A stretch of 64,000 nucleotides of DNA from Candidatus Woesebacteria bacterium RIFCSPLOWO2_01_FULL_44_24b. GTDB lineage: Bacteria > Patescibacteriota > Microgenomatia > UBA8517. The stretch is taken from positions 746 to 64,745 of the forward strand of contig MGHM01000016.1 of the NCBI GenBank assembly GCA_001793235.1, given 5' to 3'. The notes below the pieces were generated by a model. The model searched no databases. It saw only the letters and a program-made list of their open reading frames with translations, and was not told the DNA's origin. Position numbers and translations under genes: made by a program. Shown one piece after another: positions 35,701 through 37,223 of the stretch. Numbering within the stretch: position 1 is the stretch's first letter; every line of letters begins with the position of its first letter.

Positions 35701-36165
35701 ATGAATATTGGGCCAGGAGGAGAGAGGGATTTTGAGTTTGACGCCCCGGCTGAGTTTGAGACTCTCTTTAATGAAACTTTTGGCCCAAAATCAAAATACG
35801 CGCTCGAAGCATTATTGGAATGGTCGAAAAGAGAAAGTGGAAAGTTTGAAGGCCAAGCAGTTTTGGAAATACCCAACCAAAATCTGGATGGAATATCCGT
35901 CTTTTTTGTTATTTCTCCCGGAGAGGAAAGGTTTCAAGTAATTTCTGGAAGATTAACTGAAGACGGTGAGCTATACAGTGATTCTGCAGCGTTTCTCAAA
36001 TCTGACGACTTTAATAATTTTGCTGTCGGAAGAGAGGATGGCGTTGAACACGTAACATTTTATTCAATGGATAGGTCTAAAGCTTTGCGGATTAGGGAAA
36101 CGGGTAGCTTCCAATTTTATGACAGCCTTCCTTCAAAAATAGGTGGAAGGGGAAGAAGGGGTTAA
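35701..36165 (+). CDS. hypothetical protein
   Basis: 154-aa acidic ORF with no recognised motifs. Confidence 0.35.
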   Translation: MNIGPGGERDFEFDAPAEFETLFNETFGPKSKYALEALLEWSKRESGKFEGQAVLEIPNQNLDGISVFFVISPGEERFQVISGRLTEDGELYSDSAAFLKSDDFNNFAVGREDGVEHVTFYSMDRSKALRIRETGSFQFYDSLPSKIGGRGRRG

Positions 36166-36854
36166 TTCAGACTCTGTGTCATCTCAACCACTTTATCCAA
36201 ATTTCCATCAACAATTGCTTCTAAATTTCCAAAACTCTTTCCCAGTCTGTGGTCGGTGACCCTGTCCTGTGGGAAGTTATAAGTTCTTATTTTTTCAGCC
36301 CGCATGCCGCTTCCTATGGCGCTTCGGTAACCTGCAATTTCTTTCATTTTTTTCTGTTCTTCAAGCTCCCAGAGTTTAGCGCGCAGTAAGGCCATGGCAT
36401 TCACACGGTTTTGCTCTTGGAATCTCTCGGTCTGCGCAGTTACCACAATTCCCGTTGGTCTGTGAGTCAGCCTCACGGCTGTGCTGACTTTATTTACATT
36501 TTGGCCACCGTGCCCGCCGGAGCGGTAAAATTGAATGTCAAGATCGCTCGGGTTTACCTTGACTTCACTTTCTGAAATTTCAGGGAGGACCGCGACTGTT
36601 GCAGTTGACGTGTGAACTCGGCCGCGCTTTTCGGTTTCGGGCACGCGCTGGACACGATGCACTCCGGACTCGTATTTTAGTAAATCAAATACACCCGGCC
36701 CCTTTAATTTAAGAGTTTGCTCATCTTGCTGTGCTTTCCATCCTCGTTTAATGGCAAAGCGATAGTACATCCGCAGGAGATCAGAGGCCCAAAGCTTGGC
36801 CTCGTTGCCTCCTGCGGCACCACGGACTTCAATATAGCATGTTTGATTCTCCAT
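36162..36854 (-). CDS. prfA: peptide chain release factor 1 lacking N-terminal domain 1
   Basis: Begins at the RF domain 2 motif ([22 protein letters not shown]). RF1-type recognition motif region is [52 protein letters not shown] GGQ loop. C-terminal [17 protein letters not shown]. Only 230 aa. An in-frame TAG lies two codons upstream of the ATG, which is the rpmE stop. Confidence 0.8.
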   Translation of the reverse strand: [230 protein letters not shown]

Positions 36855-36860
36855 GAAGAT

Positions 36861-37223
36861 CTAAGACTTTTTACCCTTTTTTGCTTTACGATTGCCGCTT
36901 TTGCGGGTCAAAGATTTTCGAAGTGCCTCCAGGGTCTCCGGTCTATCCAACTGCTCCTGGATTTTTTTCTCGCGCTTAATCTTCCTTCGCTCGACTTTGG
37001 AAAGTACGTTAGCTTTAGCAGCACCTACTCGGGCACGGAAAGCATCAACCCGCCCTGCAGTGTCGACGAATTTCAGCTGCCCAGTATAAAACGGATGGCA
37101 ATTGGAACAAACCTCAACGTTTATTTCGGCAACGGTAGCTCCAACTGTAAATGTGTTGCCACACGCGCACTTGACACGCGCCTCGTACCACTTGGGATGT
37201 ATCTGATATTGCATGAGAAGCAT
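36861..37223 (-). CDS. rpmE: 50S ribosomal protein L31 with about 50-aa lysine-rich C-terminal extension
   Basis: Zn-ribbon CACGNTF ... CSNCHPFYTG core of L31, followed by an unusual K/R-rich tail (KVERRKIKREKK ... KAKKGKKS). Confidence 0.8.
   Translation of the reverse strand: MLLMQYQIHPKWYEARVKCACGNTFTVGATVAEINVEVCSNCHPFYTGQLKFVDTAGRVDAFRARVGAAKANVLSKVERRKIKREKKIQEQLDRPETLEALRKSLTRKSGNRKAKKGKKS

What the first reader, a model, noticed from the sequence alone, without database searches (positions are those of the whole stretch)
36162..37223. Release factor 1 lacking N-terminal domain 1, translationally coupled to an L31 gene with a long lysine-rich tail
The prfA-like ORF starts at the domain 2 motif ([12 protein letters not shown]) and is 230 aa instead of about 360. 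An in-frame TAG, which is the rpmE stop, lies two codons upstream of its ATG, so the missing 110 aa cannot be recovered by an alternative start. Domain 1 of class I release factors mediates stalk and RF3 contacts. A domain-1-less RF is otherwise the hallmark of the specialised RF-H (PrfH) paralogue, yet the gene context here (rpmE upstream, no rtcB) and the RF1-like PxT-region and C-terminus suggest the housekeeping factor. The codon-recognition tripeptide reads PET rather than PAT/PVT. No RF2 gene is seen in this window. L31 carries a 50-aa KR-rich extension not present in typical L31.
Basis: partly seen in the sequence, partly recalled or inferred. Interest (0 to 1): 0.55.

Follow-up and report, generated by a model that had tools for sequence, protein, structure and literature searches.

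The report
Natural release factor 1 without domain 1
This Woesebacteria genome, like a whole branch of the ultra-small "candidate phyla radiation" bacteria, encodes a working-looking stop-codon release factor RF1 that has lost its entire first domain while its sister factor RF2 keeps it, so nature has repeated a laboratory truncation experiment.

Summary
On the minus strand, rpmE (36861-37223) ends in TAG. Six bases later a 230-aa RF1 gene (36162-36854) begins exactly at domain 2.

It is not an artefact: more than 120 independent protein clusters are 227-245 aa. All 15 related loci with upstream sequence keep the rpmE-prfA pair and the wider gene order.

It is an RF1, not a PrfH. It scores 314 bits on the prfA model, 218 on prfB and 64 on prfH. 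The PxT, GGQ and switch-loop regions are intact, and the predicted fold matches ribosome-bound RF1.

RF2 in the same genomes is full length (338-368 aa) and passes the curated prfB cut-off. All three stop codons are in use (window: TAA 24, TAG 20, TGA 14), so RF1 activity is needed.

Domain-1 erosion is graded across Patescibacteria: about 350, about 290 and about 230 aa.

PET is the commonest PxT variant among related RF1s and is not special. The conserved basic bL31 tail is not a remnant of domain 1 and is not strictly linked to the truncation.

Not shown: genome-wide absence of a second RF1, and absence of RF3.

Verdict: a new variant of a known kind, of moderate to high interest.

The parts
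36162..36854 (-). prfA-short: a 230-aa RF1 made of domains 2, 3 and 4 only. Domain 1 is absent and domain 2 carries a 10-aa loop deletion. The stop codon is TAA.
   Evidence: ORF and translation. Pfam PCRF positions 99-194 plus the RF-1 domain. NCBIfam prfA 314 bits, model positions 103-337. PDB RF1 alignment starts at E. coli residue 109. AF2 model with pLDDT 81.6, TM 0.70 to ribosome-bound RF1.
36633..36641 (-). PxT 'anticodon' tripeptide (P72-E73-T74). The flanking residues Q69 and H81/T82 are conserved.
   Evidence: Sequence (CCC GAA ACC on the minus strand). P72 is invariant and T74 nearly invariant in the family, while x varies (E, A, T, S, Q, K, V, D, R).
36501..36509 (-). GGQ catalytic motif (G116-G117-Q118), within a GGQ-domain core that is nearly identical to that of RF2 in related genomes.
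   Evidence: Sequence (GGT GGC CAA on the minus strand). Invariant in 42 sequences. RF1/RF2 comparison within genomes.
36855..36860 (-). Six-base spacer (ATCTTC) between the rpmE stop and the prfA ATG, with no Shine-Dalgarno-like purine run within about 15 nt. Expression is probably coupled to rpmE translation.
   Evidence: In relatives the spacer is 0-27 nt in 13 of 15 loci and about 100 nt in two.
36861..37223 (-). rpmE (bL31, Zn-ribbon type with four Cys). It is 120 aa from the first ATG and 117 aa from the ATG at 37214. The stop codon is TAG.
   Evidence: Pfam Ribosomal_L31 at 7.5e-26. NCBIfam L31. P0278, 117 aa and 100% identical.
36864..37022 (-). C-terminal extension of bL31 (about aa 68-120). 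It has two predicted helices with invariant K, R, P, L and R positions (motif RP-E/D-T/S-L-x-E-L-R), followed by a variable lysine-rich end.
   Evidence: Alignment of 36 homologues. All 120 best homologues are 99-124 aa. AF2 helices 73-90 and 95-115. hhalign against RF1 domain 1 gives probability 0.3%.
37224..37252 (-). Sigma-70-like promoter match (TTGCCG, 17 nt, TG-n-TATAAT) abutting the rpmE start. It could give a leaderless rpmE-prfA mRNA starting near the ATG at 37214.
   Evidence: Consensus scan, 10 of 12 matches with extended -10. This is a pattern match only, not evidence of function.

Best explanation
This is the organism's regular RF1, the UAA/UAG-specific class I release factor, in a naturally minimised form.

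Shown:
- The whole N-terminal domain 1 (about 105 aa) and a 10-aa loop of domain 2 have been deleted.
- Domain 1 is the part that in E. coli contacts the L11/L7-L12 stalk and RF3.
- The stop-codon reading head (tip of helix alpha5, PxT, the Q/H/T residues), the switch loop and the GGQ domain are intact.

Inferred:
- The protein binds the A site, recognises UAA and UAG and triggers peptidyl-tRNA hydrolysis in the canonical way.
- It cannot be recycled by RF3 and makes no stalk contact, so it must leave the ribosome spontaneously.

The gene sits directly behind rpmE. The two are probably transcribed together, and prfA is probably translated by ribosomes that have just terminated on rpmE (inferred).

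The short form is fixed across a large part of the Microgenomates (Woese-, Blackburn-, Gottesman- and Amesbacteria). It is the end point of a graded, apparently repeated erosion of RF1 domain 1 in Patescibacteria. RF2 in the same genomes keeps its domain 1.
For: Identity as RF1:
- NCBIfam scores are prfA 314 bits, prfB 218 and prfH 64.
- PDB RF1 chains match at E = 2.5e-72, against PrfH at 6.5e-15.
- In a neighbour-joining tree the short forms sit inside RF1, far from RF2.

Intact functional sites:
- The invariant columns include the GG-E at the helix alpha5 tip, H66-R-V-Q-R, P72, H81-T-S-T, GGQ and the Y/N/R/D/H/R residues of the [12 protein letters not shown] switch-loop region.
- The AF2 model (pLDDT 81.6) superposes best on ribosome-bound, open RF1: TM 0.70, rmsd 5.1 A.

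Not an artefact:
- The 120 best clusters, from NCBI, JGI, ENA and Logan assemblies, are all 227-245 aa and sit inside contigs of up to 942 kb.
- In 15 of 15 related loci with upstream sequence the reading frame closes 0-33 codons upstream of the start.

Housekeeping context:
- The block EamA, rpmE, prfA-short facing HtrA, S41 protease, S18, SSB and S6 is conserved in 16 loci, and the rpmE-prfA pair survives an inversion.
- More distant short forms also follow rpmE.

RF1 is needed:
- TAG ends 20 of 58 long ORFs in the window, including DnaB, HtrA and rpmE, and 44 of 285 in relatives.

RF2 is separate and complete:
- Four genomes, including the 916-kb chromosome CP066693.1, carry both the short RF1 and an RF2 of 350-361 aa with SPF. 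These RF2s score 425-435 bits (cut-off 370) over the whole model.
- The RF1 and RF2 GGQ-domain cores in one genome are 94-100% identical, so both are held to the same peptidyl-transferase-centre constraints.

Plausibility from published work:
- N-terminally truncated E. coli RF1 still releases peptides in vitro and functions in vivo, and domain 1 is needed only for the interplay with RF3. This is Mora et al. 2003 as summarised in PMC1586002; (PMC6514570) gave only the reference.

Graded erosion:
- RF1 of 331, 303, 256, 235 and 230 aa occur within the same clade.
- Forms of about 283-309 aa occur in Berkelbacteria and other Patescibacteria.
- Forms of about 345-357 aa occur in Parcubacteria.
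Against: - No whole genome could be scanned, so a second, full-length prfA is not formally excluded. The genome scan found RF genes only through the shared octapeptide QTERFQEQ and was not an exhaustive RF search.
- Absence of prfC (RF3) in these genomes was not tested. RF2 keeps domain 1, so 'no RF3, hence no domain 1' cannot be the whole story.
- E. coli RF1 has been reported inactive on ribosomes lacking L11 (reviewer comment in PMC1586002). Losing the L11-contacting domain is therefore not obviously neutral.
- No activity data exist for this protein.
- The protein falls below the curated RF1 cut-offs (314 bits against 400 and 423), as expected for a 36% shorter protein.
Confidence: 0.8

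Rival explanations
1. The short protein is a specialised paralogue, for example a PrfH-like or rescue-type factor, and a normal full-length RF1 is encoded elsewhere in the genome.
For: Loss of domain 1 is the hallmark of PrfH (PMC1586002; PMC6514570). No whole-genome scan was possible. The score is below the RF1 equivalog cut-off.
Against: - The prfH model gives only 64 bits against a cut-off of 167, and only over the GGQ domain.
- There is no rtcB or other repair gene in 16 conserved neighbourhoods.
- The decoding residues are of RF1 type and conserved, unlike PrfH.
- All of the closest 120 clusters are short, and full-length RF1s appear only at 56% identity or less.
- The gene occupies the rpmE-adjacent position. 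That this is where prfA lies in many bacteria is my own recollection; no tool result supports it.
Confidence: 0.07
2. RF1 is split. Domain 1 function is supplied in trans, either by a separate small gene elsewhere or by the conserved helical C-terminal extension of the co-expressed bL31.
For: rpmE-prfA adjacency is conserved in every locus examined. The bL31 tail is under purifying selection and is helical, like domain 1. Baranov et al. raised the same idea for the gene upstream of prfH.
Against: - The tail shows no homology to domain 1 (hhalign probability 0.3%).
- A 232-aa RF1 occurs with a plain 72-aa L31 (L048), and a 303-aa RF1 that still has half of domain 1 occurs with a 108-aa L31 (L047). 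The two traits are therefore not strictly linked.
- No other conserved small gene lies in the neighbourhood.
- From my own knowledge of ribosome structures, bL31 sits at the central protuberance and 30S head bridge, not at the L11 stalk.
Confidence: 0.06
3. An L31-RF1 fusion is made by read-through of the in-frame TAG, or RF1 autoregulates its synthesis through that TAG.
For: In the window the two ORFs are in the same frame, separated only by TAG plus two codons. TAG is read by RF1 itself.
Against: In 15 relatives the rpmE stop is TAA in 10 and TAG in 5. The frame is shared in only 8 of 15, and the spacers vary from 0 to 100 nt. Neither the stop codon nor the frame is conserved.
Confidence: 0.02
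4. The short gene is an assembly or gene-calling artefact, or a recent pseudogene.
For: The window comes from a metagenome-assembled genome. Several unrelated 'short' RF1 entries in the protein library are indeed fragments or frameshifted calls.
Against: The same architecture appears in more than 120 clusters from independent projects, with 75% mean column identity and invariant catalytic motifs. It lies inside long contigs and one complete chromosome. The space upstream is occupied by a conserved rpmE.
Confidence: 0.01

Closest known systems
Canonical bacterial RF1 (PrfA; TIGR00019 / PRK00591)
   Same: Best-matching family. It shares the domain 2-3-4 fold, PxT, GGQ and the switch loop. The inferred task is the same: termination at UAA and UAG.
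   Different: It lacks all of domain 1 (about 105 aa) and a 10-aa loop in domain 2. It scores below the curated cut-offs, and NCBI names it 'hypothetical' or 'PCRF domain-containing protein'.
Engineered N-terminally truncated E. coli RF1 (Mora et al. 2003, as cited in PMC1586002 and PMC6514570)
   Same: The architecture is the same (domains 2-4 only). The engineered protein is reported to retain codon-specific release in vitro and to function in vivo, but to lose the interplay with RF3.
   Different: That protein is a laboratory construct in an organism that has RF3. Here the truncation is natural, fixed and conserved across a bacterial lineage.
PrfH / RF-H (TIGR03072)
   Same: It also lacks domain 1 and is also about 200-230 aa with GGQ.
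   Different: PrfH has a divergent decoding region, is always paired with rtcB and is sporadically distributed. Here the prfH score is 64 bits against a cut-off of 167, there is no rtcB, and the decoding residues are of RF1 type.
ArfB / ICT1-type GGQ proteins
   Same: They share the GGQ domain (50 bits over about 35 residues).
   Different: ArfB has no codon-recognition domain and uses a C-terminal basic tail. The window protein has complete domains 2 and 4.
Partly shortened RF1 of other Patescibacteria
   Same: They follow the same trend. The N-terminal half of domain 1 is missing (the models are matched from position about 45-55), and rpmE lies upstream where it could be checked (L047 for the 303-aa P0122).
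   Different: They keep about 50-60 residues of domain 1 and a full-size domain 2. The window protein keeps none.

Membership tests
RF1 (PrfA) | Scores higher on RF1 models than on RF2, PrfH or ArfB models | tested here: met
   prfA 314 and 311 bits, prfB 218, prfH 64, ArfB 50.
RF1 (PrfA) | Reaches the curated equivalog cut-off over the full-length model | tested here: not met
   314 bits against a cut-off of 400 and 311 against 423. Only model positions 103-337 of 347 are covered. The shortfall is what a missing domain 1 would cause.
RF1 (PrfA) | PxT tripeptide and the associated decoding residues | tested here: met
   P72 is invariant and T74 nearly invariant. Q69, H81 and T82 are invariant.
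RF1 (PrfA) | GGQ motif in an RF-1 (PF00472) domain | tested here: met
   PF00472 at 2.4e-38 over the full model. GGQ is invariant.
RF1 (PrfA) | Four-domain architecture with the N-terminal helical domain 1 | tested here: not met
   The protein starts at E. coli residue 109. There is an in-frame stop two codons upstream.
RF1 (PrfA) | Peptide release at UAA/UAG but not UGA | not testable with these tools
   This needs an in vitro release assay or complementation.
RF1 (PrfA) | Sole RF1-type gene of the genome | tested here: inconclusive
   There is none in the window. Four related genomes show only the short RF1 plus RF2, but the scan relied on one shared octapeptide.
PrfH (RF-H) | Meets the TIGR03072 cut-off | tested here: not met
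   64 bits against a cut-off of 166.65, over residues 95-192 only.
PrfH (RF-H) | Operon with rtcB | tested here: not met
   The upstream gene is rpmE in all loci, and there is no RtcB in 16 neighbourhoods.
PrfH (RF-H) | Lacks domain 1 | tested here: met
   This feature is shared but is not sufficient for membership.
bL31 (rpmE), Zn-binding type A | Ribosomal_L31 domain with four Cys ligands | tested here: met
   PF01197 at 7.5e-26 and PRK00019 at 95.8 bits against a cut-off of 70. C16, C18, C36 and C39 are invariant.

The most novel reading that the evidence does not exclude
In Microgenomates, termination at UAA and UAG would run on a different recruitment and recycling logic. The RF1 would make no contact with the L11/L7-L12 stalk or RF3. 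The conserved rpmE-prfA coupling and the conserved helical bL31 extension would then be co-adapted parts of that logic, for example a tail that contacts or positions the minimal RF1, or that replaces the 30S-head contact of domain 1. Meanwhile prfA and prfB would exchange their GGQ domains by gene conversion. The repeated, graded loss of RF1 domain 1 across CPR would then mark a lineage-wide rewiring of termination rather than neutral decay.
Probability: 0.1. Interest if true: 0.8.

Novelty: new variant of a known kind. Interest (0 to 1): 0.58.

Why it matters
Domain 1 of class I release factors is present in essentially all described bacterial RF1 and RF2. It is the handle for RF3 and the ribosomal stalk. 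Only laboratory truncations, and the enigmatic PrfH, showed that it can be dispensed with.

Here a large, widespread bacterial lineage has fixed a domain-1-less RF1 while keeping a complete RF2. That has several consequences:
- It gives a natural test of what domain 1 is for, and of why RF1 and RF2 differ in their need for it.
- It predicts RF3-independent, stalk-independent termination at UAG.
- It adds a translation factor to the list of minimised ribosome components of CPR bacteria.
- It has a practical side. The protein fails the curated RF1 models and is labelled 'hypothetical' or 'PCRF domain-containing'. Pipelines that rely on the TIGR00019 model could therefore score prfA as missing in these genomes. 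From memory, that model is also used in bacterial marker sets.

Tried and rejected
- **Upstream or alternative start, or a frameshift restoring domain 1.** Rejected. There is an in-frame TAG two codons upstream, stops in the other frames, and the space is occupied by a conserved rpmE.
- **The bL31 tail as a relic of domain 1.** Rejected: hhalign probability 0.3%.
- **A conserved read-through fusion or a TAG-based autoregulatory site.** Rejected: neither the stop codon nor the frame is conserved.
- **A conserved partner gene nearby that could encode domain 1.** None found in 16 neighbourhoods. The convergent 154-aa ORF at 35701-36165 has no Pfam match and is not conserved.
- **PET as a changed specificity determinant.** Rejected: x is freely variable in the family, and PET is the commonest variant among neighbouring RF1s.
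- **UGA reassignment.** Rejected: TGA ends 14 of 58 long ORFs in the window, and relatives have a full RF2.
- **Odd 'short N-terminus, long C-terminus' RF1 hits in the representative library as circular permutations.** They are contig-edge fragments, frameshifted read-ins to downstream genes, or assembly duplications.
- **Literature.** Nine searches found no description of a domain-1-less RF1 in CPR. Taxon names for the nearest full-length RF1 representatives could not be obtained.
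Full report
**1. The observation**

The minus strand carries a 120-aa L31 gene at 36861-37223 and a 230-aa release-factor gene at 36162-36854. Both are in the same frame and are separated by TAG-ATC-TTC-ATG. The other two frames upstream are full of stops, so no alternative start or simple frameshift can add an N-terminus.

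Pfam matches the PCRF model only from position 99 of 194 and matches the RF-1 domain in full. The NCBIfam prfA models are matched from position 103 or 111 onward. Against solved structures the protein aligns from residue 109 of E. coli RF1 and residue 103 of T. thermophilus RF1. That alignment also shows a gap of about 10 residues in a loop of domain 2.

PET lies at 36633-36641 and GGQ at 36501-36509. The window holds no other RF-like gene (tblastn).

**2. Source, and whether it is an artefact**

The protein is 100% identical to a 'hypothetical protein' of Candidatus Woesebacteria bacterium RIFCSPHIGHO2_01_FULL_44_21.

The 120 best clusters at 90% identity come from NCBI, JGI, ENA and Logan assemblies. 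All are 227-245 aa and 71-100% identical to the query, and many lie on contigs of 0.4-0.94 Mb. An alignment of 42 of them has 75% mean column identity. Its invariant columns include the GG-E tip of helix alpha5, [23 protein letters not shown] and the Y/N/R/D/H/R residues of the [12 protein letters not shown] switch-loop region.

A scan of one genome per GTDB species returned 16 loci with the short gene, from Woese-, Blackburn- and Gottesmanbacteria and unnamed Patescibacteria. In each, the reading frame closes 0-33 codons upstream of the start. Assembly error and pseudogene are excluded.

**3. RF1, not PrfH**

| Model | Score | Cut-off |
|---|---|---|
| prfA | 314 and 311 bits | 400 and 423 |
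| prfB | 218 bits | 370 |
| prfH | 64 bits, GGQ domain only | 167 |
| ArfB | 50 bits | 100 |

- PDB RF1 chains match at 2.5e-72, RF2 at about 1e-46 and PrfH at 6.5e-15.
- An AlphaFold model built on the family alignment has pLDDT 81.6. The switch loop has low confidence, as expected.
- The model superposes best on ribosome-bound, open RF1 (TM 0.70, rmsd 5.1 A). It fits the compact free forms worse, at rmsd 10-13 A.
- In a rough neighbour-joining tree of the domain 2-4 core, the short forms sit inside RF1 and are separated from RF2 by a long branch.
- No rtcB or any repair gene is nearby.

**4. The tripeptide**

In the family the P is invariant and the T nearly so, while x is E, A, T, S, Q, K, V, D or R. 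Among the 150 nearest RF1 cluster representatives, R[VI]PET is the commonest form, at 50 of 127 with a recognisable motif. PET is ordinary.

**5. Genomic context**

In 15 of 15 related loci with upstream sequence, rpmE lies immediately upstream. The spacer is 0-27 nt in 13 loci and about 100 nt in two.

The wider order is conserved: DnaB, an MBL-fold protein, an unknown gene, HisRS and an EamA transporter, then rpmE and prfA-short, facing HtrA, S41 protease, S18, SSB, S6 and YchF. The rpmE-prfA pair stays together across an inversion in L016.

More distant short or half-short RF1s also follow rpmE.

- The rpmE stop is TAA in 10 relatives and TAG in 5.
- The frame is shared in only 8 of 15.
- A read-through fusion or a TAG-based feedback device is therefore not conserved.

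A sigma-70-like match (TTGCCG, 17 nt, TG-n-TATAAT) abuts the rpmE start. The second ATG, which NCBI uses as the start, lies 7 nt after the -10 element. The rpmE-prfA mRNA may therefore be leaderless. This is a pattern match only.

**6. The rest of the termination system**

Stop-codon use among 58 long, non-overlapping ORFs of the window is TAA 24, TAG 20 and TGA 14. In the 16 related loci it is 178, 44 and 63. TAG ends well-supported genes such as DnaB, HtrA, the S41 protease and rpmE, so an RF1 activity is required. TGA is a stop, so RF2 is required.

The genome scan also brought in 29 RF2 genes, because RF1 and RF2 of this lineage share the octapeptide QTERFQEQ. All carry SPF and GGQ, are 338-389 aa in a single ORF and include domain 1.

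Four genomes show both genes:

| Genome | Short RF1 locus | RF2 locus |
|---|---|---|
| CP066693.1 (916-kb chromosome) | L002 | L039 |
| CAZGEA01 | L007 | L020 |
| MHCC01 | L003 | L035 |
| DASVCV01 | L010 | L042 |

Their RF2s score 425-435 bits (cut-off 370) over the entire prfB model. Only RF1 has lost domain 1.

Because the scan depended on one peptide, it does not prove that no third RF gene exists. That remains the main gap. RF3 could not be examined.

**7. How far the trait extends**

In the library of 50%-identity representatives, the nearest entries to the query are:
- P0122: 303 aa, with a 73-aa remnant of domain 1;
- P0123: 235 aa;
- P0125: 256 aa, Amesbacteria;
- P0126: 232 aa;
- P0127: 331 aa.

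Ordinary RF1s of about 355 aa follow at 56% identity or less.

A profile of CPR-like reduced forms recovered many RF1s of 283-309 aa. These include Berkelbacteria and 'Patescibacteria group' entries that NCBI names RF1. It also recovered full-length forms of 334-357 aa, among them Parcubacteria and 'Patescibacteria group' entries.

Among those hits, 52 have a 50-59-residue N-terminal remnant and 43 have 110-129 residues. The half-length forms match the RF1 models from position about 45-55.

In the tree, fully truncated forms occur in at least three places, next to longer relatives. This suggests repeated or stepwise loss, though the tree is crude.

**8. The bL31 tail**

All 120 best L31 homologues are 99-124 aa. 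After the normal L31 fold comes a conserved segment with invariant K, R, P, L and R positions (consensus LSK-ERRK-KREKKI-EELERP-E/D-T/S-L-EELRK), followed by a variable lysine-rich end. AlphaFold predicts two helices, 73-90 and 95-115.

- The tail is not related to RF1 domain 1 (hhalign probability 0.3%).
- It is not strictly tied to the truncation. L048 pairs a 72-aa L31 with a 232-aa RF1, and L047 pairs a 108-aa L31 with a 303-aa RF1.
- Tsurumaki et al. 2022 already list bL31 among the ribosomal proteins that are enlarged in CPR bacteria. They do not mention release factors (PMC9297842).

My inference is that the tail is one of the CPR-specific basic extensions that bind rRNA.

**9. Mechanism**

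Shown: an RF1 with a complete decoding head, switch loop and GGQ domain and no domain 1. It is conserved, syntenic with rpmE and co-resident with a full RF2, in organisms that use all three stop codons.

From the literature:
- Domain 1 binds RF3 and is the least conserved RF domain.
- It is not needed for codon recognition or hydrolysis.
- Truncated E. coli RF1 releases peptide in vitro and functions in vivo.
- Domain 1 appears to matter more for RF2 than for RF1.

These points are Mora et al. 2003 and the reviewer discussion, as reported in PMC1586002; (PMC6514570) supplied only the Mora reference.

Inferred:
- The protein terminates at UAA and UAG canonically.
- It dissociates without RF3 and makes no stalk contact.
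- The asymmetric loss (RF1 but not RF2) matches the asymmetric dependence seen in E. coli.

**10. Novelty and score**

Nine full-text searches found no description of this. A broad survey of release-factor diversity lists only RF1, RF2, ArfB and PrfH on the bacterial side (PMC6514570).

The thing is a new variant of a known kind: a natural, lineage-wide, domain-1-less housekeeping RF1. I score interest at about 0.58. It would surprise specialists moderately and it is directly testable, but the biochemical possibility was already known from truncation experiments.

Noticed in passing
L002/L039, L007/L020, L003/L035, L010/L042 (RF1 and RF2 genes); window 36400-36530 (-) is the equivalent RF1 segment: The short RF1 and the full RF2 of one genome share a nearly identical GGQ-domain core: 35 aa, [35 protein letters not shown], 94-100% identical. 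The rest of the two proteins is 20-40% identical. Lineage-specific variants (PSGL, RLIH, FFRAGSQ) occur in both paralogues of the same genome. Over 183 nt, same-genome RF1-RF2 identity (0.74-0.83) exceeds RF1-RF1 identity between genomes (0.65-0.72). This points to gene conversion between prfA and prfB, or to tight co-evolution with a shared partner (the peptidyl-transferase centre or PrmC). Only four genome pairs were examined.
   Followed up: partly
window 48477-50648 (+): A 723-aa tyrosine recombinase (Phage_integrase plus SAM-like N-terminal domain) is interrupted by an intein with a LAGLIDADG homing-endonuclease domain.
   Followed up: no
window 37224-37252 (-): A good sigma-70-like promoter match with an extended -10 lies inside the 3' end of the EamA gene and abuts the rpmE start. 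The ATG at 37214 lies 7 nt after the -10 element, which suggests a leaderless rpmE-prfA transcript and a 117-aa L31.
   Followed up: partly
L004 and L011 (DnaB ORFs of 876 and 868 aa) versus window 39805-41130 (+): DnaB is about twice as long in some relatives as in the window (441 aa). This probably reflects an intein insertion.
   Followed up: no
window 35701-36165 (+): A 154-aa ORF with no Pfam match converges on prfA and overlaps its stop codon by 4 nt. The slot between prfA and the HtrA gene holds different, unrelated small ORFs in relatives.
   Followed up: partly
window 22875-29681 (+): A cluster of type IV pilus / type II secretion-like genes (response regulator, T2SSE ATPase, T2SSF platform, two unknown ORFs, a pilin with an N-terminal methylation motif) lies next to sensor kinase and response regulator genes at 12265-17755.
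   Followed up: no
protein library entries P0121, P0124, P0149, P0154, P0189, P0237: Several 'RF1' cluster representatives in the public protein library are assembly duplications, or contig-edge fragments that run by frameshift into the downstream gene. Length outliers in that library therefore need inspection before use.
   Followed up: yes
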